DNA of 64,000 bases from Candidatus Nanosyncoccus sp. (GCA_045641865.1 JAZUHW010000002.1:10872-74871), one strand, 5' to 3'; shown: positions 20,532 through 45,499, numbered from the stretch's first letter. Made by a program: numbers and translations. Notes: generated by a model from the letters alone, not told the origin.

Positions 20532-21284
20532 CTATAAAAAAGTTTGCCATAATATGTAGATCCAATCGAGGATTAGGAGTATCGTTCCGCTGAAAATTAC
20601 GGAATCGATGCGGTCTAGACAGCCACCATGGTCACCCAAAAAGCTTTTTATTTTTTTATAAAAAGTATATTTTTCGGATGCACAGTCGCAAGAGTCTTTA
20701 ATGCCAAAAGCCCGCTTGACCATAGAGCAAAACAAGTCGCCTAGCAAAGCTAGGGGACCTATACAGGCAAAATAGACTTGGTCTAGACTCACATCGATTA
20801 CTCCTAATAGCGGATGGCCAGCCGCCAATCTCAATCCTCACATAATGAGAAAGATTAAGATTGGTGCCAACAGATGGGCAATCGTTCCCTCTACCGTCTT
20901 GTTAGGCGATATTCCCGGGAATGGTGATGTCCGAAAGAAGTGGTGGCCAAATAAGTGGCCTCCGAGTCATCCAGCTGCATCAGCGCCTCATACACAGACA
21001 AATAAAAGGGCAATTTCGGTTTGTGTTGCAAATAATACATACAAACCGCCACCGATAACCAGTAGGTAGCCCCATCCTCGATATCAATTAGCCTTATCTC
21101 GACCAACCCCACCGACTACTCGATGAGTCAATGATGTTAGTTCGATAAAAGCTAACACACAGGCTATTTCAAATAAAATTCGAAATGGCCAGCCATACCC
21201 TATACATAATGTAATTACGGATACAGTCACAATTAAAATTGCGGGGATTACCCGCGCGCGCAAAACGCTCTTTCGTTTCTTCAT
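20532..21284 (-). CDS. cdsA: phosphatidate cytidylyltransferase (CdsA)-like protein; frame open only if 4 in-frame TGA codons are sense
   Basis: Track fragments 21084-21284 and 20532-20834 are in the same frame. The 250 nt between them translate without TAA/TAG. TGA codons at 21084-86, 20988-90, 20967-69 and 20838-40. Motifs V[TGA]GADAAG[TGA]LGG, ISPNKTVEG, KRAFGIKD and HGGCLDRIDS. SD AAGGAGGG precedes ATG 21284. Confidence 0.8.
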
Positions 21285-24559: not shown

Positions 24560-24568
24560 TGCTATAAT
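24560..24568 (+). promoter_or_regulatory. extended -10 box TGCTATAAT, 8 nt upstream of the metG ATG
   Basis: The sequence reads TGCTATAAT-atccctat-ATG. No SD is present. Confidence 0.5.
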
Positions 24569-24576
24569 ATCCCTAT

Positions 24577-26142
24577 ATGGCAAAGGAAAAATTCTACATC
24601 ACCACACCAATTTATTACCCATCAGGTGACCCGCATATTGGGCATTGTTATACCACGGTGGCCTGTGATTTGATGGCACGCTATAAGCGTGAGCGCGGCT
24701 TTGATGTGATGTTTGTGACTGGCGCCGATGAACACGGCCTCAAAATCCAGGAAAAGGCCAAAGCCGAAGGCGTTACTCCTCAAGAATACGTCGATAAAAT
24801 GGCCAAAAAGTTCCAGGACCTCTGGAAAACTATGAATATCTCTTACGACCGTTTCGTCCGCACTACTGATGATTACCACGTCCAGACCGTACAGTGGATT
24901 TTTAACGAGCTTTACAAAAAAGGCTACATCTACAAGGGTGAATACAAAGGTAAATACTGCGTCCCAGATGAAACTTTCCTCACCGAATCGCAACTCGTAG
25001 ACGGTAAATGCCCCGAATGTGGTCGCGAAGTGATTGACGCCTCCGAAGAAGCTTATTTCTTTAAGATGTCCGAATTCGCCGAGCCGATCAAAAAACTCCT
25101 CACCGAGACTGATTTCCTCGAGCCAAAATCCCGTGTTAATCAGATGGTTAACAGCTTTATCGACGCTGGTTTGGAAGATCTCTGCGTCTCGCGTAGTAGT
25201 TTTGACTGGGGTATTCCGGTGCCTTTTGTCGATGGGCACGTGGCTTATGTCTGGATTGACGCGCTGTCCAACTATATCTCTATCCTTGGTTTCCATAACG
25301 ACAAATACAACGATTACGACAAATACTGGCCAGCCGACCTCCACATGATGGCCAAAGAAATCGTGCGTTTCCATGCTATTACCTGGCCAGCCATCTTGAT
25401 GGCGCTCGATTTGCCTCTGCCAAAGAAAGAATATGGTCACGGCTGGATCACTTTTGGCGACCAAAAGATGAGCAAATCGGTCGGGAACGTGGTAGATCCG
25501 GTGATTCTCTCTGAGCGTTATGGGGTGGATGCCGTGCGCTATCAGATCCTCAGTGAGATGCCTTACAACGGTGACAGCGCTTTTACCAACGAATTATTCC
25601 TAGAACGCATCAATTCTGACCTCGCCAACGATTATGGTAACTTAGTTTCGCGCTCTACTGCAATGATAAACAAGTATTTTAATGGCCAACTCCCAGATGC
25701 AAGAGAGGAAGGCCCCGAAGACAAAGAATTACTAGAGGTACTCGCTAAGTTACCAGAGGCAATAGAAGCAAAATACGACACCATGCATTTTTCCGAGGCC
25801 CTATCAGAGATAATGAAGGTAATTGGCCGCACCAACAAATACATTGACGAAACCGCCCCCTGGGCTCTCTCTAAAGACGACAGCAAAAAAGCCCGTCTCG
25901 CCTCTGTTCTCTACAATTTATTAGAGGTAATCAGGGTCACTAGTATTTTACTGCGCCCAGTGATGCCAAATATCGCCCCAGAGACCCTCAGACGCGTCGG
26001 AGCGGACGATCAGTGTTCTACATGGCAAAGTGCCCACAAAATCGGTTCCCTGCCCCAAAACGCCAAAATTAGCACCGGAGAGCCCCTTTTCCCTCGTATC
26101 CGTATCAGTCAAGAGCTAGAAGAACTAGCCAAATTAGCTTAG
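24577..26142 (+). CDS. metG: methionine--tRNA ligase
   Basis: 521-aa ORF with a HIGH-type motif (DPHIGH), KMSKS and a CPECG zinc knuckle. Confidence 0.92.
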   Translation: MAKEKFYITTPIYYPSGDPHIGHCYTTVACDLMARYKRERGFDVMFVTGADEHGLKIQEKAKAEGVTPQEYVDKMAKKFQDLWKTMNISYDRFVRTTDDYHVQTVQWIFNELYKKGYIYKGEYKGKYCVPDETFLTESQLVDGKCPECGREVIDASEEAYFFKMSEFAEPIKKLLTETDFLEPKSRVNQMVNSFIDAGLEDLCVSRSSFDWGIPVPFVDGHVAYVWIDALSNYISILGFHNDKYNDYDKYWPADLHMMAKEIVRFHAITWPAILMALDLPLPKKEYGHGWITFGDQKMSKSVGNVVDPVILSERYGVDAVRYQILSEMPYNGDSAFTNELFLERINSDLANDYGNLVSRSTAMINKYFNGQLPDAREEGPEDKELLEVLAKLPEAIEAKYDTMHFSEALSEIMKVIGRTNKYIDETAPWALSKDDSKKARLASVLYNLLEVIRVTSILLRPVMPNIAPETLRRVGADDQCSTWQSAHKIGSLPQNAKISTGEPLFPRIRISQELEELAKLA

Positions 26143-26157
26143 AAGCCATAAAAAATA

Positions 26158-26182
26158 CCCCAGCAGCTTGCACCTGCTGGGG
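26158..26182. terminator. bidirectional terminator between metG and the DUF285 gene
   Basis: 9-bp stem CCCCAGCAG/CTGCTGGGG flanked by AAAAATA and GAATTTT. Confidence 0.75.
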
Positions 26183-26187
26183 GAATT

Positions 26188-26751
26188 TTAAGCACTAGAA
26201 GGTCTAAGAAAGTCCCAAGATCCGGGCCAATAGTCGACATACCTTGCATTAACAAGCACCTCTTGCAAAGATTCACAGCCTTGAAACATGTCGCTAAAAT
26301 CTTTGACACAAGAGACATCAAAGCTATGCAAATCAAGTCGTTGCAATTTTTTGCATCCGGCAAACATGCGACTCATATCTTGAATTTTGTGTGTATCTCA
26401 GCTCGTCAAATCGAGCTCTTCTAGATTTTCACATCCGGCAAATGTCTCCTGCATGTTGACAGAATGGCTAATATCCACATATTCTAGGCCAACAATCGTC
26501 TTTAGACTAGTCATATTTTGGAATAAGCCGGCCATTCAAAACGGCCGCATCCCCTTTACAGATTCATGAAAAACAATTTTGTCAATCTCGTGATAGACAT
26601 TTTGCTTTTCGGCCTGGACAAATCAATCTTGCCAACGTCAGATTGGCCGATAAATACTTTTGTCAGCTAAGTCTTTGTGAACAAAAGTCAGAATTCATTG
26701 CTGCTCCTCGATACTGGTAGCAGCCATTACATCATACGGTGATACTTCCAT
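26188..26751 (-). CDS. DUF285/BspA-like leucine-rich-repeat protein 2 (187 aa); needs 5 in-frame TGA codons read as sense
   Basis: The frame is continuous from ATG 26751 (SD AAGGAGGTGGTGG) to TAA 26188. TGA codons at 26695-97, 26638-40, 26623-25, 26536-38 and 26398-400. Repeats are of the form FxGCxxLxxLDLxx(F/M/TGA)Dxxx(V/I)xDMSxMF. Confidence 0.75.
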
Positions 26752-26855
26752 AACCACCACCTCCTTACTGAACTCAGATCTAAGTGCAAGTTAGATTCTT
26801 CTAATACTGATAAGGTACACAAAAATAGGCCTCAATATGCCCACTTATCATACTG

Positions 26856-26866
26856 ATTATATCACA
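26856..26866 (-). promoter_or_regulatory. extended -10 box TGTGATATAAT for DUF285 protein 2
   Basis: Reverse complement of attatatcaca, about 100 nt upstream of the ATG. Confidence 0.45.
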
Positions 26867-26880
26867 TAAACATAGCAAAA

Positions 26881-26907
26881 CCCCCAGCACGTCAATAATG
26901 CTGGGGG
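26881..26907 (-). terminator. terminator after DUF285 protein 1
   Basis: 9-bp stem CCCCCAGCA/TGCTGGGGG, near-identical in its arms to the terminator at 26158-26182. Confidence 0.7.
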
Positions 26908-26924
26908 CTTACGCATTACACCGC

Positions 26925-27542
26925 TTAGTAATTAGCATCCAAATAAGCTTGTATGGCCTTTTTCATCTCTGATAACGAATACTTTGCTACTTCATATTTA
27001 TGAGGAACCCAACGTTCGTCGCGTTTATAATCCATAATATGAAATTGGACTTTTGGATTGCACCCAGCAAAAATCTGCTTGACATCCTCTCTGTTAGCTT
27101 CAGTATATCCGAACTCAAACTCCGGAGACATATAGACATGTTCAAGGGATTTACAATTAACGAACATGTTACTCATATCTTGGACGTTATGGGTATCCAT
27201 AGTAGTTAAATCGAGCTCTCGTAGCTTTGTGCAACCTTCAAACATCGACCGCATAGATACTGCTTGTTCAGTGTTCAGATGCCCTAAAGAAATTTCCTCG
27301 ACGTGTGGCATATTGCAAAAGAGTCGCTCAAGATTCGTCGGTTTAAACTGTTGTATCGTTCGGTGGAGAATAATATAGTTTATACGCTGGCGACGATTAT
27401 CGCCGTCAAGAAAACCCACTAACTCACCTCAAGGAACTTCGACCTCTCCGGCTTCCTTTGTTGAGTTGCTACTACAGATAGTAAGTACACTGCCACTGCT
27501 GGTAATTCTGCCAACTACTTCGTTGTCATCTAAATTTCACAT
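26925..27542 (-). CDS. DUF285/BspA-like leucine-rich-repeat protein 1 (205 aa); needs 2 in-frame TGA codons read as sense
   Basis: SD AAGGAAGGTGGTG lies 5 nt before ATG 27542, and the second codon is TGA (27537-39). A second TGA is at 27429-31. The C-terminal 164 aa match track ORF 26925-27419. Confidence 0.7.
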
Positions 27543-27597
27543 AATGACACCACCTTCCTTTCGTCAGTCTTGGATAATGCGTAATAATGTACGTCAA

Positions 27598-27620
27598 AAG
27601 TGGGCACTTGATGCCCACTT
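27598..27620 (-). terminator. hairpin after the sortase-like gene
   Basis: 9-bp stem AAGTGGGCA/TGCCCACTT. Confidence 0.5.
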
Positions 27621-27643
27621 GACTATTTCTATTTTAGCACAAA

Positions 27644-28327
27644 TTAGATGCGATCGGCAAAAACAACAAGACGTTGAGAAGCGTCACCACCACCCCAAGA
27701 CACACCATGACAAGTCATAATGGCTAAGCTGTGTTGACGAGTACCACTAACAGTAGTAGCGCGAGCATTAATGATGTTACTCATAAAGTTGCGACCAGGT
27801 AAGCCATCAGGATATAACAGTTCGGTACCACGTGCAGTATATTCGTGGTTATAGATTACCTTTTCCGAAATACGATAATCGGTAGTTTGGCCATTAACAG
27901 TGACAGAAAAAGTCGTACCTTCTGGTAAACCAGCCAAATGACCAAATACAGCACCGGTATTATGACCGTAAAGAAAGCTATTGCTATAACGGGCTACACG
28001 AGTTCCGGCATCATCAGCGGTAGAACCAGTATCGTACATTGAGATAGTGCGACCACCAATAGTAATATAAGAACCAGATAAGGCTACATCGCTAGCATTT
28101 GGTGCCTTAGCACGGGTGACGGTCAACTCAGAACGGGTAGACTGATAAGTATTAGCAATCTCAGAACTCTGAATCGGCTTAGCAATTTCTGTAGCAGTAT
28201 AATTACTGTTACGATCAGAAATATCGGTATCAGGAATCTGGCCAGCATTAGTGGCCGCTGTGAAGCTTGTCAAGGATGTAAACCCAAGAAAAGCCAACAA
28301 AACTAACTGTATCACATGACGGTTCAT
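27644..28327 (-). CDS. secreted sortase-fold protein (class F-like, second copy)
   Basis: Start moved to MNRHVIQLVLLAFLGF (signal peptide). Has His (LYGHNTG), the TC motif (LAIMTCHG) and a C-terminal R (QRLVVFA). No internal TGA. Confidence 0.65.
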   Translation of the reverse strand: MNRHVIQLVLLAFLGFTSLTSFTAATNAGQIPDTDISDRNSNYTATEIAKPIQSSEIANTYQSTRSELTVTRAKAPNASDVALSGSYITIGGRTISMYDTGSTADDAGTRVARYSNSFLYGHNTGAVFGHLAGLPEGTTFSVTVNGQTTDYRISEKVIYNHEYTARGTELLYPDGLPGRNFMSNIINARATTVSGTRQHSLAIMTCHGVSWGGGDASQRLVVFADRI

Positions 28328-28446
28328 TTCCACACTCTCCCAATTTAGTGATATAACATCATTATAGCACACTTTTGTCAAAAATGCAAGTGCTTTTGCT
28401 TAAATCCTGCTCACAATCAAATTATCTCAAATACAACCAGGGGTTT

Positions 28447-28467
28447 CCTGGGGCAAAATGCCCCAGG
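28447..28467 (-). terminator. hairpin downstream of the sigma gene
   Basis: 8-bp stem CCTGGGGC/GCCCCAGG, but no clear T-run on the minus strand. Confidence 0.35.
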
Positions 28468-28474
28468 ATTGACA

Positions 28475-29287
28475 TTAAGGGTTCTGCTCTTCTTCAAGTC
28501 ATCTCTTAAGAGAGCGATTATGTAGAGCCATGCTTTGAAATCCTTTATTAAGGATCTGTCTGACTCGCTCGCGTGTCAGGCCTACTTTTTGGCCAATTTC
28601 CTCCAAAGTATATTCTCTAGGATAGGGTTCTAGCCCAAACCTCATCAAAAAGATGGTTCGCGTTCTTTGCGGGAATGCATCGATGACTTTTTCTAACCTC
28701 TCGCGTAACAGAGTAGTTTCAGCTGCATGACTTGGACTCTCGGCAGACTCATCGGCCACAAAATTGATTAGTGACATTGACTCCGGGTCATTGGCCGCGA
28801 CGGGCGTATTAAGAGACGCAACAGAGGAAAAAAACTCTATATCATCTTCCACTTGATCCACTGGTCATTGTAATTCGTCCGCTATTTCTGATGGGGTAGG
28901 AGTTCTACCTAGCTTTTGAGTTAACTCAGTGGCAGTCTTCCTGATTTTAGCAAACTCCGCATATCGGTGGACCGGTTTTCGGATAATGTCACCTTGCTTG
29001 CATATATACCGTTGCATGGCTTGACGAATCCAAAAGACGACATAAGTGGCAAACGTATTGCCTTTGTTGATGTCAAACCTCTCAATGCCCTTGAGAAGCC
29101 CTAGTGCACCTTCCTGCAACAAATCTTCCTGTGGAACTCGTTGCTGATTCCTAAATCATTTATGATAGGCGAACCAAATAAGATTTTGATTCTTTTCAAA
29201 AATTTGGTTACGAGCTTCCTTGTCCCCTTCTGCCGCACGCTTGAAGAGCCGGCGTTCCTCGGCAGAATAACGAGTTTTTTTAGCCAT
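28475..29287 (-). CDS. sigma-70 family RNA polymerase sigma factor (regions 2-4); 2 internal TGA codons and a third 8 codons before TAA
   Basis: ATG 29287 is preceded by GGAGGTG. TGA codons at 29156-58, 28865-67 and 28499-501. Track fragments 28865-29122 and 28499-28861 are in frame. Region 2 is FATYVVFWIRQAM; region 4 is YTLEEIGQKVGLTRERVRQI. Confidence 0.8.
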
Positions 29288-29325
29288 CGTTATCACCTCC
29301 TTTGTGATATCCTCAATGTCTTTTA

Positions 29326-29344
29326 CAGATACAATTTGTATCTG
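29326..29344. promoter_or_regulatory. 9-bp perfect inverted repeat (CAGATACAA-N-TTGTATCTG) in the sigma gene leader; candidate operator or RNA hairpin
   Basis: Lies between the -10 box (29378-29386) and the SD of the sigma gene. Confidence 0.45.
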
Positions 29345-29377
29345 GGATAAATTGATTGTTAAAGAGCAGATACCCCT

Positions 29378-29386
29378 ATTATAGCA
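29378..29386 (-). promoter_or_regulatory. extended -10 box TGCTATAAT for the sigma gene
   Basis: Reverse complement of attatagca. Confidence 0.45.
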
Positions 29387-29388
29387 AA

Positions 29389-31583: not shown

Positions 31584-31658
31584 TGGCAGGGGCGACAGGA
31601 ATTGAACCCATATCTACGGTTTTGGAGACCGCTATACTAGCCGTTGTACTACGCCCCT
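31584..31658 (-). tRNA. tRNA-Trp (anticodon CCA), CCA encoded
   Basis: Hand fold: AGGGGCG acceptor, anticodon loop CTCCAAA, D-stem GTAC/GTAT giving a U11:A24 pair. Confidence 0.85.
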
Positions 31659-33749: not shown

Positions 33750-34611
33750 CGTAAAACTCCTTTGGCACAGGGGCCGTAAAGATACGGCGGTCGCCTTCTG
33801 GGATGGTGATTTCAAGCTGATAGGCGTGTAAAAACAGCCTAGAAGATGCCTCGCCATACACACTATCACCTAGGATTGGCGTGCCGAGGTATTGTAAGTG
33901 GACTCGAAGCTGGTGAGTGCGGCCGGTTTTGGGTTTGAGTTCCAACAGAGAGAATTGGTCATTTTGCTGTAAAACTTTGTAATAAGTCTGACTGGCTTTA
34001 CCGCTAGCATCGACCATAAAAGTTGTAGGATGTTTGTAATTACGAATAATTGGCAGGTCAATTAATGCCTCTGGTTGCTTGGGGCGCCCTTCAACCACGG
34101 CATAGTAAGTCTTGTGAGTCTTGCGGTCTTGGAACTGTTTACGGAGCATTTTTTGCGTCTCTGGGTCTTTGGCCAAAATTACTACCCCTGATGTATCTCT
34201 GTCAAGACGGTGCACAAGAAGTCCGTAATCTTCCAGAGTAGGCTCGGCACAATACTCCCCTTTAGCCATAGAGAGTAATCCAGCGGGCTTATTGACCACC
34301 AAAATATGTTCATCCTCGTAAATAACAGGGAGTTTAGGTAATTTTTTGGTTTTTTCGGGTGTATCTAAAACAATCTGGGCATCAGGTGCGATTTGAGCAT
34401 TAGGCTTCAGGATAGGAGTGTCATCCACAGATACACGCCCTTCTTTAATGAAACGCTGCAGGGTAGAACGATTAAACTCGGGATGTTGCTGAACTAATAA
34501 ATGGTCTAGTCTTTCCCTATTATCCGGTTTTTCGGTGTCAGCTAATTCTAAATCACCATTAATTACCCGAGACATCTGAGGTTTGCTGAATTTTTTGCCT
34601 GTGCGAATCAT
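33739..34611 (-). CDS. rluD: RluA-family pseudouridine synthase (RluD-like) with S4 domain
   Basis: 290-aa ORF with the catalytic motif HRLDRDTSGVVILAK. Ends on TGA. Confidence 0.85.
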   Translation of the reverse strand: MIRTGKKFSKPQMSRVINGDLELADTEKPDNRERLDHLLVQQHPEFNRSTLQRFIKEGRVSVDDTPILKPNAQIAPDAQIVLDTPEKTKKLPKLPVIYEDEHILVVNKPAGLLSMAKGEYCAEPTLEDYGLLVHRLDRDTSGVVILAKDPETQKMLRKQFQDRKTHKTYYAVVEGRPKQPEALIDLPIIRNYKHPTTFMVDASGKASQTYYKVLQQNDQFSLLELKPKTGRTHQLRVHLQYLGTPILGDSVYGEASSRLFLHAYQLEITIPEGDRRIFTAPVPKEFYDVF

Positions 34612-35648: not shown

Positions 35649-35657
35649 ATTTTAGCA
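35649..35657 (-). promoter_or_regulatory. extended -10 box TGCTAAAAT, 6 nt upstream of the trpS ATG (leaderless layout)
   Basis: The reverse complement reads TGCTAAAAT-aaaagt-ATG. Confidence 0.5.
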
Positions 35658-35799: not shown

Positions 35800-36201
35800 T
35801 TACACATGAAACTTCACGGCAATATCCCTTTGCGCTTCTAGAGCCGTTACCGTTGCTAGGTTGCTTGGTTTCATAGACCAAATTCCTATCAACACGTCTA
35901 GACGTTGAGCTAATGAGTCCAACTTGGCAATTTCACCTAAACACCATAAAGCGTCAAGTTGCTCTAAGGCTCTTTGACACTCTTCACTTGTAGGCACAGG
36001 TATCTGCCCTACTGACTGGTGAATCGTTTGGTGAACGTTGAGCCGCTCTAGACGATACCTCAGGTAAGGATGCCCGCGTAGAGCCTTTGCATACCCAGAA
36101 CATCAATTTGAGCGCGACCATAATAAATGGTGCTTGTTGTACTTTTGGGATTTGACTTTGCGTGCTTGTTTCATGCGTCTTTTTGTGCGTTTTCTTGACA
36201 T
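35800..36201 (-). CDS. small basic His-rich protein (HNH-like motif KHHLLW...H...H); 1 in-frame TGA
   Basis: SD GGAGGTGGTG lies 2 nt before ATG 36201. TGA at 36103-05. The C-terminal 65 aa equal track ORF 35800-35997. The function guess is weak. Confidence 0.55.
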
Positions 36202-42909: not shown

Positions 42910-43371
42910 TTATTTCTTGATAGCTTTGCGCTGTGGAATAGCTACTTGTTTGAACGAACCACCAGCTTTTTTAATGGCAGCAACAGCGGTCTTGCTAGCC
43001 CCCTGAGTTTCTAGATCAATCTTAGCGGTCATTTCACCGCGCAAGATGATTTTGACCTTTTCATAAGGGGTAGCAATGAGATCTTTTTTGGCAAGGACAA
43101 AGTTGTCAACTTTACCAGAAAGACCGTTCAAACAATCAGTGTAAACCACCGTAGCTTTGGGGTGGATAGATTTAAAACCTTTGAGCTTTGGAATAGCCTG
43201 CATAAAGGCTTTTTGGCCGCCCATGAAGGTAGCTGGCATCTTATTGTGACCAGCTCGGGACTTTTGACCCTTGGTACCACGACCAGCGGTTTTACCCTGG
43301 CCAGCGGAAATACCACGACCTTTGCGGTTAGGACGAGTATTCTTGTTTACCTGTAATTCATTGTATTTCAT
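42910..43371 (-). CDS. rplO: 50S ribosomal protein L15
   Basis: 153-aa ORF. Confidence 0.92.
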   Translation of the reverse strand: MKYNELQVNKNTRPNRKGRGISAGQGKTAGRGTKGQKSRAGHNKMPATFMGGQKAFMQAIPKLKGFKSIHPKATVVYTDCLNGLSGKVDNFVLAKKDLIATPYEKVKIILRGEMTAKIDLETQGASKTAVAAIKKAGGSFKQVAIPQRKAIKK

Positions 43372-44027
43372 TATTTCTCCTCCTTTTTGGTGGCTTTCTT
43401 TGCCGGAGCCTTTTTGCTAGTAGCCTTATTGATGGTAGTGATCCATTGGCTGCGTGGAGTTTGTTGCTTGAGACCTTCAATTACGGCGTAAGCGATATTT
43501 ACTTTGTTGGCACCACCGATGGACTTGGAAATCAAGTTTTTTACCCCTGTTAAACCAATAATGGAACGCACCACACCACCGGCAATAATACCAGTACCGG
43601 GAGCAGCTGGTTTCATCAATACATCGGCGCCATCAAATTTAGTCTCGGTTTCATGACAGATAGTTTCGCCATCCATGTGAAATTCAATCATGTCTTTTTT
43701 GGCCTTGGTAGTGGCTTTTTGGACAGCGCTGGTGACATCTACACCTTTCGCAACGCCAATACCAACCTTATTCTTGTGGTTACCGATGGCTACTAGAGCT
43801 TTAAAGCGCATACGACGACCACCTTTAACAGTACGAGAAACGCGGTCAATGCTAATGGTAACATCATCAAATTCTTTAGGAGCGCGTTCGACACGGCGAT
43901 TGCGGTCACGACGCTGGTTGCGACGGTCCATCTTTTTACCAGAGATATCGCGCTTGGTACGAGTAGCAGCGACATCGTCGGTCATCTTGAGAGTACCGGA
44001 TTTGTTGATTACTTTTGCTTCAGCCAT
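43371..44027 (-). CDS. rpsE: 30S ribosomal protein S5 with N- and C-terminal basic extensions
   Basis: Start moved to MAEAKVINK (ATG 44027), just after the rplR stop. Abuts rplO directly, so there is no rpmD. Confidence 0.9.
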   Translation of the reverse strand: MAEAKVINKSGTLKMTDDVAATRTKRDISGKKMDRRNQRRDRNRRVERAPKEFDDVTISIDRVSRTVKGGRRMRFKALVAIGNHKNKVGIGVAKGVDVTSAVQKATTKAKKDMIEFHMDGETICHETETKFDGADVLMKPAAPGTGIIAGGVVRSIIGLTGVKNLISKSIGGANKVNIAYAVIEGLKQQTPRSQWITTINKATSKKAPAKKATKKEEK

Positions 44028-44028
44028 A

Positions 44029-44358
44029 TTAGAACTCCAATCCTTCCTTGCGGGCAGCATCTGCAAGAGCAGCCATGCGGCCAGCATATAATTTTGATCC
44101 GCGATCGAACATTACGCATTTGATTTTAGCTTTTTTCGCTTTAGTAGCGATTTCTTTGCCAATCACAGCGGCCATTTCGGTCTTAGTCCCGGTAATTTTG
44201 CTTCCAACAGTGGTAGCATAGGCCAAAGTGACTTTTTTATCATCATCAATAATTTGCGCAATGATGTGCTTGTTGCTGATATTAACGCTGAGACGCGGAC
44301 GGTCAGCGGTTCCATGTAGTTTAGCGCGAGTACGACGCGCACGATTAATAGCTTTCAT
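44029..44358 (-). CDS. rplR: 50S ribosomal protein L18
   Basis: 109-aa ORF. Confidence 0.92.
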   Translation of the reverse strand: MKAINRARRTRAKLHGTADRPRLSVNISNKHIIAQIIDDDKKVTLAYATTVGSKITGTKTEMAAVIGKEIATKAKKAKIKCVMFDRGSKLYAGRMAALADAARKEGLEF

Positions 44359-44897
44359 TAGCTTGTAGCCCCTGCCTTTCCGGCCTTGCGGAGAATAACT
44401 TCATCCACATATTTAATGCCTTTACCTTTATATGGTTCGGGTTTCTTGAGGCTGCGAATTTCAGCCGCAACTTGCCCGACTTTCTGCTTATCAATACCAC
44501 TAACGGTGATTTCCATCTTGTCAACTTTGAGTTCAACATCATCTGGAGCAGTATATTTAACAGGGTGAGAAAAGCCGAGAGCCATCTCAATCTGCTTACC
44601 ACCGCCAGATAGACGAAAACCGACACCATTGACTTCGAGTTTTTTCTCGTAGCCTTTAGTGACGCCTTGGACAGCGTTATTTAGTAATGCACGTTGAAGA
44701 CCATGCCAAGCACGTGACTTGGGCTCATCATCAACACGGGTGACAACAGCTTCGTTGTCTTTCACTTCAACCTTGGTGTTAGGTTGGACCGGCACATTGA
44801 GTGAACCTTTTGGCCCTGCGACAGTAATTTCTTTGTCGCCGACCGTGATTGTCACTCCCGCCGGAATTGGTACGGGTTGTTTTCCGATACGACTCAT
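44358..44897 (-). CDS. rplF: 50S ribosomal protein L6
   Basis: 179-aa ORF. It is the first gene of this ribosomal block. Confidence 0.95.
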   Translation of the reverse strand: MSRIGKQPVPIPAGVTITVGDKEITVAGPKGSLNVPVQPNTKVEVKDNEAVVTRVDDEPKSRAWHGLQRALLNNAVQGVTKGYEKKLEVNGVGFRLSGGGKQIEMALGFSHPVKYTAPDDVELKVDKMEITVSGIDKQKVGQVAAEIRSLKKPEPYKGKGIKYVDEVILRKAGKAGATS

Positions 44898-44929
44898 AAA
44901 AAATCCCTTTGTTAATTAATACTCCGACA

Positions 44930-44940
44930 ATTATATCACA
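44930..44940 (-). promoter_or_regulatory. extended -10 box TGTGATATAAT upstream of rplF
   Basis: Reverse complement of attatatcaca. TTGTCA lies about 14 nt further upstream. Confidence 0.5.
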
Positions 44941-44972
44941 GGCTATCTGTTTTGACAAGGGTCGAAAAAATA

Positions 44973-44996
44973 CCCCGCTCATATCTACGAACGGGG
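44973..44996 (-). terminator. terminator after the carrier-protein gene
   Basis: CCCCG/CGGGG stem with a 14-nt loop, followed by TATTTTTT on the minus strand. Confidence 0.45.
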
Positions 44997-45013
44997 ATAA
45001 AAACTGTATCAGA

Positions 45014-45235
45014 TTATCGACTCTGAATATATTGTACTAATTCGCCAACGGTTTTAACACTCATAATCTCATCGCCCAAATCAACTTCTAAACGCTCTTC
45101 TAGTTCACAAGTCAACTCTAACGCATCTATAGAATCTAGACCTAAATCTTTTAAAGTTGCTGATTCAGTGATTTGTCCTGGAGTAATCTGATGTTTTTCT
45201 CATAATATTTGCTTGATTGTTCCTAAAATGTCCAT
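45014..45235 (-). CDS. acyl/peptidyl carrier protein (73 aa); 1 in-frame TGA
   Basis: Absent from the ORF track. SD AAGGAAGGTG lies 5 nt before ATG 45235. Translation is MDILGTIKQIL[TGA]EKHQITPGQITESATLKDLGLDSIDALELTCELEERLEV..., with the phosphopantetheine-site motif LGLDSID. TGA at 45200-02. Confidence 0.75.
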
Positions 45236-45308
45236 TTTGCCACCTTCCTTTCAACAACCTTACAAACCATTATTAATGTGCTGGCACTCGAAGCACCTTC
45301 GTGAAGCC

Positions 45309-45328
45309 CATTATATCATGATATAATG
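45309..45328. promoter_or_regulatory. perfect 20-bp palindrome CATTATATCATGATATAATG providing TGATATAAT -10 boxes on both strands
   Basis: Self-complementary over all 20 nt. The plus-strand copy lies 6 nt before ATG 45334. The minus-strand copy faces the carrier-protein gene. Confidence 0.55.
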
Positions 45329-45333
45329 CGAGT

Positions 45334-45498
45334 ATGGATGATGAATATTGGGAAGCCGAAATGGAAGAAGAGATGCGCATTCGTGAACGGGCAGAAGAAA
45401 TGGGCATCGACCCTGAGCAAACCGACCAATTAATCCGCGCAAAAGGTGATACTTTTGATATTACAGATGAAGATTTGGACGAGTTAGTCAACGAATAA
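45334..45498 (+). CDS. 54-aa highly acidic protein (leaderless candidate)
   Basis: Manual translation is MDDEYWEAEMEEEMRIRERAEEMGIDPEQTDQLIRAKGDTFDITDEDLDELVNE. TATAAT plus 6 nt plus ATG, as at other leaderless genes here. Preferred over the Ser-rich antisense ORF 45273-45491. Confidence 0.45.
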   Translation: MDDEYWEAEMEEEMRIRERAEEMGIDPEQTDQLIRAKGDTFDITDEDLDELVNE

Positions 45499-45499
45499 T

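What the first reader, a model, noticed from the sequence alone, without database searches (positions are those of the whole stretch)
26143..29388. 3.2-kb accessory island: recoded sigma factor, second sortase-fold secreted protein and two recoded cytoplasmic DUF285/LRR paralogues
Four minus-strand genes lie between metG and the YgjP-like gene, each with its own hairpin terminator:
- a sigma-70-family factor lacking region 1 (2 internal TGA plus one 8 codons before TAA);
- a signal-peptide sortase-fold protein (H, TC and R motifs) with no TGA;
- two tandem DUF285/BspA-type repeat proteins (2 and 5 TGA) that lack signal peptides.

The two DUF285 genes end in near-identical terminators (CCCCAGCAG.../CCCCCAGCA...), which suggests a tandem duplication. 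In DUF285 protein 1, TGA is already the second codon, directly after a strong SD and ATG.

The island could be a sigma-controlled surface or host-interaction module. No function can be read from the sequence alone.
Basis: partly seen in the sequence, partly recalled or inferred. Interest (0 to 1): 0.65.

Follow-up and report, generated by a model that had tools for sequence, protein, structure and literature searches.

The report
UGA-as-tryptophan genes in a standard-code bacterium
In a gut Saccharibacteria genome that ends genes with UGA, this island and at least three other genes carry in-frame UGA where tryptophan belongs and are still under purifying selection, so one chromosome seems to use UGA in two ways.

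Summary
Four minus-strand genes lie between metG and the YgjP-like gene: a sigma-70 factor with 3 in-frame TGA, a divergent sortase paralogue with none, and two DUF285/PARCEL LRR proteins with 2 and 5.

The premise of a table-4 genome is wrong. In 59 other genes of the window (18,193 codons), all 162 Trp codons are TGG. Eight of those genes end in TGA, five in ATGA overlaps.

In-frame TGA is confined to at least six genes: the three island genes, a cdsA-like gene between rplK and rplA, a carrier protein and an XRE regulator. These genes are not decaying.
- Against a sister strain, dN/dS is 0.07 to 0.21.
- All 14 variant sites seen in other gut metagenomes are synonymous.
- TGA and TGG interchange between strains, and more distant relatives carry TGG at the same sites.
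- TGA makes up 58% of Trp codons in four of these genes, the same share as other A-ending codons.

My best reading is that UGA is read as Trp in a minority of genes, by a decoder not present in the window, while UGA still terminates other genes. Sigma control of the island is not supported. No such mixed usage is described in a bacterial chromosome in the papers I searched.

The parts
28475..29287 (-). Sigma-70 family factor, 270 aa, regions 2-3-4 only (group-2-like). In-frame TGA at 29156-29158, 28865-28867 and 28499-28501.
   Evidence: Pfam and NCBIfam hits. The closest database proteins are RpoD-type at 43% identity or less. All 7 variant sites in runs X1-X3 are synonymous. The codon-263 TGA aligns with TGG in L081 and L082. 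The allele in sister strain L081 is only 35% identical and carries 3 different TGA.
29288..29386 (-). Sigma promoter and leader: extended -10 TGCTATAAT at 29378-29386, a 90-nt leader with the palindrome CAGATACAAATTGTATCTG (29326-29344), and an AGGAGGTG Shine-Dalgarno site.
28437..28471 (-). Hairpins after sigma; a weak terminator-like site.
27644..28327 (-). Divergent sortase paralogue with an N-terminal signal or anchor. H122, C206 and R219 are invariant. It has one Trp codon (TGG).
   Evidence: Alignment A1. hhalign against the neighbouring canonical sortases gives probability 97.7%. One family member hits PF04203 at 5.6e-9. dN/dS is 0.12. The AF2 model is too poor to use (pLDDT 44).
28361..28369 (-). 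Extended -10 TGCTATAAT of the sortase-like gene, with TTGCAT 17 nt upstream.
27598..27620 (-). Terminator hairpin of the sortase-like gene. It lies downstream of the -10 motif assigned to DUF285-1 (27631-27639), so it sits inside that gene's putative leader.
26925..27542 (-). DUF285/PARCEL LRR protein 1, 205 aa, no signal peptide. TGA at 27537-27539 (codon 2) and 27429-27431 (codon 38).
   Evidence: Pfam and NCBIfam hits. dN/dS is 0.21 against L081 (p = 0.005), with both TGA kept. Codon 38 aligns with TGG in L082.
26878..26910 (-). Terminator of DUF285-1 (13-bp stem, CCCCCAGCA...).
26188..26751 (-). DUF285/PARCEL LRR protein 2, 187 aa, no signal peptide. TGA at 26695-26697, 26638-26640, 26623-26625, 26536-26538 and 26398-26400.
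   Evidence: Pfam E 6.5e-18. dN/dS is 0.07 with dS 0.88 and three TGA/TGG flips against L081. All 7 variant sites in X1 and X3 are synonymous and the TGAs are kept. The AF2 model of the orthologue has a BspA-type LRR fold.
26856..26864 (-). Extended -10 TGATATAAT of DUF285-2, followed by a 104-nt leader and a TAAGGAGGTGGTGG Shine-Dalgarno site.
26158..26182 (-). Terminator of DUF285-2 (CCCCAGCAG...).
20532..21284 (-). cdsA-like CTP_transf_1 gene inserted between rplK and rplA, outside the finding. It has 4 in-frame TGA (codons 67, 99, 106, 149).
   Evidence: Pfam E 1.4e-23 and genomic context. The same 4 TGA occur in L084, with dN/dS 0.21. The orthologue in the same slot in L091 has 7 TGG and no TGA, and two of the window's TGA align with its TGG.
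45014..45235 (-). Carrier protein (PP-binding) with TGA at codon 12 (45200-45202). The Ser35 attachment site needs read-through to be translated.
   Evidence: Pfam E 8.7e-13, spanning the TGA. The TGA is kept in run X1.
50666..50896 (+). XRE-family HTH regulator with TGA at codon 17 (50714-50716), inside the HTH_3 domain.
   Evidence: Pfam E 9.2e-12. The sequence is identical in run X1.
31584..31658 (-). tRNA-Trp(CCA), the only Trp tRNA in the window. It has U11:A24 and a G27.U43 pair at the top of the anticodon stem.
   Evidence: Its anticodon arm is identical in the standard-coded relative L091, so on its own it does not explain the recoding.
34608..34610 (-). Example of UGA used as a stop: the end of trpS, in an ATGA overlap with the next gene's start.
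   Evidence: Homology to solved TrpRS structures ends at residues 342-344, just before this TGA.

Best explanation
The window comes from a gut Saccharibacteria (TM7, Saccharimonadales) bacterium. UGA is an ordinary stop codon for most of its genes, but a minority are written with UGA as tryptophan. That minority includes three of the four island genes and at least three genes elsewhere in the window.

These genes are intact and selected, so the cell must translate UGA as Trp with useful efficiency, at least under some condition. The decoder is not in the 64 kb. I infer a tRNA with anticodon UCA, or another UGA-reading Trp tRNA, encoded elsewhere in the genome or supplied by a resident element. 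That step is not shown. Output of the island genes would then be gated or throttled by UGA suppression, on top of ordinary housekeeping-type promoters and strong Shine-Dalgarno sites.

The island itself is a strain-variable accessory module inserted next to a conserved sortase-like gene. It holds a group-2-like sigma factor that is swapped between strains, and two small BspA/PARCEL-type LRR proteins without export signals. Their role is probably cell-envelope or host interaction, which is also inferred. A sister strain carries a 548-aa secreted PARCEL protein with a C-terminal hydrophobic segment and basic tail, also with 6 UGA.
For: Taxon:
- L36 and S13 fall in 90%-identity clusters with proteins named Candidatus Saccharibacteria or Saccharimonadales.
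- S5 abuts L15 with no L30 between them.

UGA as a stop:
- Among 59 genes the stops are TAA 44, TGA 8 and TAG 7, with five ATGA overlaps.
- TrpRS homology ends at its TGA.
- SecY is 471 aa in three strains, and the record's code-11 proteins are in the public collection while the code-4 forms are absent.

UGA as Trp in a gene subset:
- 14 TGA and 10 TGG in four genes, against 0 TGA and 162 TGG elsewhere (p = 5e-15).
- Two more genes carry a TGA inside a Pfam domain.
- TGA and TGG flip between the window and L081 at 6 aligned columns: 3 in DUF285-2 and 3 in the sigma alleles.
- TGA aligns with TGG in the more distant L082 and L091.

Selection acting in place:
- dN/dS is 0.07 for DUF285-2 (p = 1e-21), 0.21 for DUF285-1 (p = 0.005) and 0.21 for the cdsA-like gene (p = 0.004).
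- 14 of 14 variant sites in sigma and DUF285-2 from three other metagenomes are synonymous.
- There are no frameshifts and no TAA or TAG in any copy.

Long-term neutral use:
- The TGA share of Trp codons is 0.58 and 0.61 in the two strains, equal to the A-share of the K, E, Q and L codon pairs (0.41-0.72).

Native origin of at least one recoded gene:
- The cdsA-like gene sits in the same rplK-rplA slot in L091 with TGG only.

Expression signals:
- Each island gene has an extended -10, a strong Shine-Dalgarno site and a terminator.
Against: - No UGA decoder and no prfB were seen, because only 64 kb of the genome was available.
- The one Trp tRNA has anticodon CCA, and its anticodon arm is identical in a relative without recoded genes.
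- No transcript or peptide data could be found.
- Efficient suppression should also extend the 14% of proteins that end in UGA. Yet back-up stops after those UGAs are not enriched (median 12 codons against 13), and the share of UGA stops is no lower than in relative L083.
- No sequence context separates sense UGA from stop UGA.
- The census rests on one window and two to five related strains.
Confidence: 0.6

Rival explanations
1. The whole organism has already switched to code 4, with RF2 lost and a tRNA-Trp(UCA) gained. The apparent UGA stops would then be read through into short C-terminal extensions.
For: UGA-to-Trp reassignment is now known in Patescibacteriota, in Minisyncoccia (PMC13092985; bioRxiv 10.64898/2026.05.24.727570). 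Extensions after the UGA 'stops' would be short, at 4-46 codons. A gene caller chose code 4 for contig L081.
Against: If UGA were a free synonym of UGG, TGA should appear in all genes. It is 0 of 162 in 59 genes, against 58% in four recoded genes. There are 0 flips in 31 host Trp columns against 3 in 19 recoded columns between strains, although host dS is 0.18-0.63. Five UGA stops sit in ATGA start/stop overlaps. TrpRS homology ends at its UGA. Described code-4 lineages lack UGA at gene ends (PMC13092985).
Confidence: 0.12
2. The UGA-containing genes evolve under code 4 somewhere else, in a recoded phage, plasmid or other organism. They are repeatedly imported and are not translated in this host.
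For: DUF285-2 (dS 0.88) and sigma (35% aa identity) are much more diverged between strains than their flanks. DUF285-1, the sortase-like gene and the cdsA-like gene are less diverged (dS 0.05-0.08 against 0.18-0.63). Both patterns indicate recombination. The TGA share is at equilibrium. UGA-recoded phages of standard-code hosts are known (PMC10746230; bioRxiv 10.1101/2021.08.26.457843).
Against: The cdsA-like gene is native: the same operon slot in L091 holds a TGG-only orthologue. The orthologous island in L082 is TGA-free. No phage hallmark, integrase or repeat flanks the island, and PHROGs and PADLOC give only generic sigma hits. No relatives turned up in IMG/VR. The recoded genes lie at five separate loci among core genes. 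DUF285-1 and the cdsA-like gene show purifying selection at the same divergence level as the neighbouring sortase-like gene.
Confidence: 0.1
3. The genes are young pseudogenes that happen to be disrupted only by TGG-to-TGA mutations.
For: The public record, annotated in code 11, does not contain the full-length proteins.
Against: There are 16 TGA and no other lesion in six genes. dN/dS is 0.07-0.21, and 14 of 14 population variants are synonymous. TGA-to-TGG changes also occur between strains. Several TGA lie at non-Trp ancestral positions.
Confidence: 0.04
4. The pattern is an assembly chimera or a sequencing artefact.
For: None found.
Against: The same gene order and the same TGAs appear in an independent Logan assembly (L081, L084) and in contigs of runs X1-X4.
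Confidence: 0.01

Closest known systems
Genome-wide UGA-to-Trp reassignment (translation table 4): Mycoplasmatales, Hodgkinia, Zinderia, Nasuia, Stammera, Eggerthellaceae MGR clade, Minisyncoccia JAKLIH01
   Same: UGA stands at conserved Trp positions and interchanges with UGG. The organism is host-dependent, has a reduced genome and belongs to Patescibacteriota, like JAKLIH01.
   Different: In those lineages UGA is used in genes of all classes, never ends genes, and prfB is lost (PMC13092985, PMC13462651). Here 59 of about 65 genes avoid UGA completely, and 14% of them end with it. This is a different class (Saccharimonadia), for which only code 11 is reported (PMC10746230).
Stop-codon-recoded phages and prophages in standard-code hosts (code 4 or code 15 phages with suppressor tRNAs)
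   Same: Two coding regimes meet in one cell. Recoded genes can be made only when a suppressor is active. The TGA share looks like long-term neutral use.
   Different: No phage genes, no block structure and no suppressor tRNA are seen nearby. The recoded genes are cellular, scattered, and at least one is a native gene inside the rplK-rplA operon.
Ambiguous-intermediate model of codon reassignment, and context-dependent stop/sense codes of ciliates and Blastocrithidia (4-bp anticodon-stem tRNA-Trp CCA)
   Same: One codon apparently serves as both stop and Trp in the same genome.
   Different: In this bacterium no positional or sequence context separates the two uses. The tRNA-Trp(CCA) has a 5-pair stem with a G.U top pair that is shared with a non-recoded relative. 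Here the split is by gene, not by position within the mRNA.
Low-level natural UGA read-through by tRNA-Trp (as described for Bacillus subtilis; from my own knowledge)
   Same: Trp would be inserted at UGA by a CCA-anticodon tRNA with U11:A24.
   Different: A few per cent read-through per codon cannot yield product from genes with 3-6 UGA, yet these genes are under strong purifying selection.

Membership tests
Translation table 4 genome (UGA = Trp throughout) | In-frame UGA at Trp positions in genes of all classes | tested here: not met
   0 TGA among 162 Trp codons in 59 genes; TGA occurs only in six genes
Translation table 4 genome (UGA = Trp throughout) | No UGA at the ends of genes | tested here: not met
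   8 of 59 genes end in TGA, five in ATGA overlaps; TrpRS homology ends at its TGA
Translation table 4 genome (UGA = Trp throughout) | Loss of prfB (RF2) and presence of tRNA-Trp(UCA) | not testable with these tools
   Only 64 kb is available; it holds no prfB and no UCA tRNA
Recoded phage or prophage block | Phage hallmark genes and one contiguous recoded block with its own suppressor tRNA | tested here: not met
   PHROGs gives only generic sigma and LRR hits; there is no integrase; the recoded genes lie at five separate loci; the tRNAs of the window are standard
Pseudogene | Relaxed selection (dN/dS near 1) and mixed lesions | tested here: not met
   dN/dS 0.07-0.21; all 14 population variants synonymous; TGA is the only lesion
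Selenoprotein genes (UGA = Sec) | UGA aligning with Cys or Sec in homologues | tested here: not met
   UGA aligns with TGG (Trp) in strains and relatives; SECIS elements were not searched for separately
Sigma-70 family | Regions 2, 3 and 4 | tested here: met
   PF04542, PF04539 and PF04545 all above cut-off. The best NCBIfam models are RpoS/RpoD-type but below their cut-offs, so this is a group-2-like factor without region 1.1
Sortase (PF04203) | His-Cys-Arg catalytic residues on a sortase domain | tested here: met
   H122, C206 and R219 are invariant. hhalign to canonical sortases gives probability 97.7% with the three residues aligned. The window protein itself is below the Pfam threshold, and its structure model is unusable
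DUF285 / PARCEL (BspA-type LRR) | PF03382 / TIGR02167 repeats and an LRR solenoid | tested here: met
   Pfam E 5e-11 and 6.5e-18; TIGR02167 above cut-off; the AF2 model of the orthologue matches 4gt6, 6mlx and 4fs7
   All four island genes carry TGNTANAAT, the motif also found before tRNA, ribosomal and metG genes (51 sites against 14 expected)

The most novel reading that the evidence does not exclude
This Saccharibacteria lineage is a living dual-use state of UGA. RF2-dependent termination and efficient Trp insertion coexist, partitioned by gene. That could be a regulated code switch, in which a suppressor turned on in a particular life-cycle state or by an infecting element unlocks a regulon of UGA-gated genes: a sigma factor, an XRE regulator, LRR and surface proteins, and lipid and carrier proteins. 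Or it could be the long-postulated ambiguous intermediate on the way to table 4.
Probability: 0.4. Interest if true: 0.95.

Novelty: new variant of a known kind. Interest (0 to 1): 0.8.

Why it matters
Every bacterial UGA-to-Trp reassignment described in the papers I read is complete: RF2 is gone and no genes end in UGA (PMC13092985, PMC13462651, bioRxiv 10.64898/2026.05.24.727570). How a lineage crosses from one code to the other is inferred only from models such as codon capture, ambiguous intermediate and unassigned codon.

A chromosome in which UGA still ends 14% of genes while a selected minority uses it as Trp at synonymous equilibrium would make that question directly testable. It would also extend 'code switching as gene regulation' from phages to cellular genes.

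There is a practical side too. Code-11 annotation silently drops or truncates these genes in Saccharibacteria MAGs, including a sigma factor, a regulator and surface proteins. Coding-density tests for table 4 would miss such genomes.

Tried and rejected
- Exact look-ups of the window's own sortase-like protein, metG, SecY and the edge genes found nothing, so the window's own contig appears to be absent from the contig look-up.
- The GTDB scan with metG returned only Ruminococcaceae-like genes at 65% identity or less.
- Viral scans with sigma, the sortase-like protein and a sigma alignment gave no close relative.
- The two database relatives of DUF285-2 outside the lineage are low-GC, TGA-free elements and were uninformative.
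- No RNA runs were found, and the raw-read run X6 does not contain the organism.
- I laid metagenome contigs on the tRNA-Trp gene to look for a UCA paralogue. The result was swamped by other organisms' tRNAs.
- A search of phage contigs for the window's anticodon arm with UCA found 32 phage contigs, most carrying a tRNA(UCA). The four I aligned resemble the window's tRNA only in that arm, so no link can be claimed.
- Back-up stops after UGA stops are not enriched.
- Sense and stop UGA do not differ in sequence context.
- The AF2 model of the sortase-like protein was too poor to search with.
- PADLOC gave only a generic sigma match to MzaA, so I did not take this as a defence system.


Full report
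**1. What is there**

- Sigma (28475-29287) has Pfam regions 2, 3 and 4 and no region 1. NCBIfam places it nearest the RpoS/RpoD-type factors but below their cut-offs. Its best database relatives are primary sigma factors at no more than 43% identity.
- The next gene (27644-28327) has an N-terminal hydrophobic anchor and no Pfam hit. Its small family has invariant His, Cys and Arg residues. A profile of the family matches the canonical sortases that sit next to it in relatives, with probability 97.7% and E 2.4e-12.
- DUF285-1 (26925-27542) and DUF285-2 (26188-26751) hit PF03382 and the PARCEL repeat model. They lack any N-terminal hydrophobic stretch.
- An AlphaFold model of the 89%-identical orthologue of DUF285-2 has pLDDT 65-93 over residues 50-180. 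It matches BspA-type LRR proteins 4gt6, 6mlx and 4fs7.
- TGA counts and positions are as reported: sigma codons 44, 141 and 263; DUF285-1 codons 2 and 38; DUF285-2 codons 19, 38, 43, 72 and 118.
- Terminator-like hairpins follow each gene, and the two DUF285 terminators share a CCCCAGCA stem.

**2. The genome is not table 4**

I called ORFs with only TAA and TAG as stops. Most large genes have no TGA at all. Eight have a single TGA in their last few per cent.

Under code 11, the 59 ORFs of at least 100 aa end in TAA 44 times, TGA 8 times and TAG 7 times. Five of the TGA stops form ATGA overlaps with the next start codon: trpS, its downstream pseudouridine-synthase-like neighbour, secY/adk and the FemAB pair.

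Homology of TrpRS to 24 solved structures ends at residues 342-344, immediately before its TGA at codon 345. The public record of this contig was annotated in code 11. The 203-aa Tmk and 471-aa SecY are in the protein collection, while their read-through forms and the table-4 island proteins are not.

The organism is a Saccharibacteria (Saccharimonadales) bacterium. Its L36 and S13 fall in 90%-identity clusters with proteins carrying those names. S5 abuts L15 without L30. Near-identical DNA occurs in gut metagenomes.

**3. TGA is confined to a few genes, and not only in the island**

In the 59 host genes (18,193 codons), all 162 Trp codons are TGG. In sigma, DUF285-1, DUF285-2 and a cdsA-like gene at 20532-21284, 14 of 24 are TGA (Fisher p = 5e-15).

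The cdsA-like gene (CTP_transf_1, E 1.4e-23) lies between rplK and rplA. A scan of short ORFs found two more such genes:
- a carrier protein (45014-45235; PF00550, E 8.7e-13) with TGA at codon 12, upstream of its Ser35 attachment site;
- an XRE regulator (50666-50896; PF01381, E 9.2e-12) with TGA inside the helix-turn-helix.

The sortase-like gene has only one Trp codon, so its lack of TGA does not place it in either class.

**4. The TGA-containing genes are under purifying selection where they sit**

A sister strain was recovered as Logan contigs L081, L084 and L089, with flanks 92-94% identical in nucleotide sequence. It carries the same island and the same cdsA-like gene.

| Gene | dN/dS vs sister strain | dS | p |
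|---|---|---|---|
| DUF285-2 | 0.07 | 0.88 | 1e-21 |
| DUF285-1 | 0.21 | 0.067 | 0.005 |
| cdsA-like | 0.21 | 0.051 | 0.004 |

No copy has a frameshift or an in-frame TAA or TAG.

Three of eight Trp columns in DUF285-2 flip between TGA and TGG, in both directions. The two sigma alleles are 35% identical, have three TGA each, and also show TGA/TGG alternation.

Contigs from three further gut metagenomes keep the TGAs they cover. They differ from the window at 14 sites in sigma and DUF285-2, all synonymous in the TGA = Trp frame. The carrier-protein and XRE TGAs are also kept.

**5. TGA means Trp, and at least one recoded gene is native**

In the more distant relative L082, the sortase-like protein is 57% identical. 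Its orthologous island runs sigma, sortase-like, sortase, DUF285, DUF285 and has no in-frame TGA. Its TGG aligns with the window's TGA at sigma codon 263 and DUF285-1 codon 38.

In L091 (50% identical), the gene order is YhhN, AAA, YgjP, sortase-like, sortase, metG, SecE, NusG, L11, cdsA-like, L1. That gives three results:
- The sigma and DUF285 genes are an insertion in the window's lineage, where the DUF285 genes occupy the slot held by the canonical sortase in L091 and L083.
- The cdsA-like gene is an old resident of the rplK-rplA slot.
- In L091 it has 7 TGG and no TGA, and two of the window's four TGA align with those TGG.

Relative L083 also lacks sigma and DUF285, and it uses TGA as a stop.

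**6. TGA behaves as a neutral synonym in these genes**

The TGA share of Trp codons is 0.58 in the window and 0.61 in the sister strain. The A-ending share of AAR, GAR, CAR and TTR in the same genes is 0.41-0.72.

In host genes between the two strains, none of 31 aligned Trp columns has flipped, although dS is 0.18-0.63. In the recoded genes, 3 of 19 have flipped (p = 0.049). So TGA is strongly selected against in most genes and not detectably so in a few.

**7. How it most likely works**

Shown:
- The genes are real, selected and well equipped for expression. Each island gene has the extended -10 TGNTANAAT, an AAGGAGG-type Shine-Dalgarno site and a terminator.
- UGA in them stands for Trp.
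- UGA also ends other genes.

Inferred: the cell has a UGA-decoding Trp tRNA that I could not see. The window holds only tRNA-Trp(CCA), even with relaxed Rfam thresholds. Its anticodon arm, with G27.U43 at the top of the stem, is identical in the non-recoded relative L091.

Two versions fit the data.
- A regulated suppressor, giving two states. This would explain the all-or-none split between gene classes, the equilibrium TGA share and the normal use of UGA stops.
- Constant competition between RF2 and a suppressor, tolerated only in genes where low output suffices.

I lean to the first but cannot test it. Either way, the island proteins are made only as far as UGA is suppressed. TGA at codon 2 of DUF285-1 would then act as an early gate.

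**8.

A sigma-specific promoter is not visible. The island genes use the same extended -10 found 51 times in the window (14 expected), in front of tRNA, ribosomal, trpS and metG genes.

The recoded genes do differ in having 50-104-nt leaders, whereas 11 host genes have the -10 only 6-9 nt from the start codon (Mann-Whitney p = 0.013).

PADLOC and PHROGs give only generic sigma and LRR matches. The two DUF285 genes are 33% identical and both are present in L082, so the duplication is old.

A surface or host-contact role remains plausible but untested. In the sister strain, a 548-aa PARCEL protein has a signal peptide, a C-terminal hydrophobic segment with a KRK tail, and six in-frame TGA.

**9. 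Comparison with what is known**

The UGA-to-Trp reassignments covered in the papers I read are Mycoplasmatales, several insect endosymbionts, a Verrucomicrobiota symbiont, gut Eggerthellaceae and the Minisyncoccia lineages JAKLIH01 and GCA-2747955. They are described as genome-wide, typically with prfB lost and a tRNA-Trp(UCA) gained; absence of UGA stops is reported explicitly for JAKLIH01 (PMC13092985, PMC13462651, bioRxiv 10.64898/2026.05.24.727570).

Saccharibacteria and their phages are reported as code 11 (PMC10746230). Partial recoding tied to gene class is known from phages of standard-code hosts (bioRxiv 10.1101/2021.08.26.457843; PMC10746230). Here there are no phage genes, the recoded genes are scattered, and one is native.

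My literature searches found no description of a bacterial chromosome with this mixed usage. That is absence in the searched library, not proof of absence.

**10. Verdict**

The interesting point is not the island's gene content, which is ordinary. It is that the island belongs to a set of selected genes written with UGA = Trp inside a genome that otherwise uses UGA as a stop. The main gap is the unseen decoding machinery. The whole genome and proteomics would settle it.

Noticed in passing
window 20532-21284 (-): A cdsA-like CTP_transf_1 gene with 4 in-frame TGA sits between rplK and rplA in the secE-nusG-rplKAJL cluster. The orthologue in relative L091 occupies the same slot and uses only TGG.
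   Followed up: yes
window 45014-45235 (-) and 50666-50896 (+): A carrier protein (PP-binding) and an XRE-family HTH regulator each carry one in-frame TGA inside the Pfam domain. Code-11 annotation would truncate or miss both.
   Followed up: partly
window 35800-36201 (-): A 133-aa ORF lies between two tRNA-Ala genes, with one in-frame TGA (codon 33), a basic N-terminus and no Pfam hit. It may be a seventh recoded gene.
   Followed up: no
whole window, e.g. 24560-24568 before metG and 35649-35657 before trpS: The extended -10 motif TGNTANAAT occurs 51 times against 14 expected. In 11 host genes it ends 6-9 nt before the start codon, which implies leaderless mRNAs. The recoded genes instead have 50-104-nt leaders with AAGGAGG Shine-Dalgarno sites.
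   Followed up: partly
window 28475-29287 vs L081 2323-3153: The sigma gene is replaced by a 35%-identical allele in a sister strain whose flanks are 92-94% identical. DUF285-2 is also far more diverged (dS 0.88) than its neighbours. This looks like allele exchange within the island.
   Followed up: partly
L089 136-1785 (-): The sister strain encodes a 548-aa secreted DUF285/PARCEL protein with six in-frame TGA, a signal peptide and a C-terminal hydrophobic segment with a KRK tail (possibly a sortase sorting signal). It sits next to the amidohydrolase and metG genes.
   Followed up: partly
window 29326-29344: A perfect 19-nt palindrome, CAGATACAAATTGTATCTG, lies in the 5' leader of the sigma gene. 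It could be an operator or an RNA hairpin.
   Followed up: no
window 27598-27639: The -10 motif assigned to DUF285-1 lies upstream of the sortase-like gene's terminator hairpin. A transcript from it would start with that terminator, so attenuation is possible, or DUF285-1 may be read through from upstream.
   Followed up: no
window 42910-44087 and 44358-51359: S5 abuts L15 with no L30, as expected for CPR bacteria. S10 is separated from L6-L18-S5-L15-SecY by Mur-ligase-like, hydrolase, DegT, two FemAB and carrier-protein genes. The L3 to S8 block is absent from this stretch.
   Followed up: no
window 24577-26142 (+): The best matches to metG among GTDB species genomes are Ruminococcaceae and Oscillospiraceae at about 65% identity. 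This suggests acquisition from Bacillota, or very poor sampling of the host lineage.
   Followed up: no
window 31584-31658 (-): tRNA-Trp(CCA) has U11:A24 and a G27.U43 wobble pair at the top of the anticodon stem. The same arm occurs in relative L091, while the more distant L100 has C27-G43.
   Followed up: partly
L112-L143 (IMG/VR): 32 phage contigs, many over 100 kb with tRNA arrays, contain the exact 17-nt anticodon arm GCGGTCTTCAAAACCGT, and most carry a tRNA with anticodon UCA. The four aligned are otherwise unlike the window's tRNA-Trp.
   Followed up: partly
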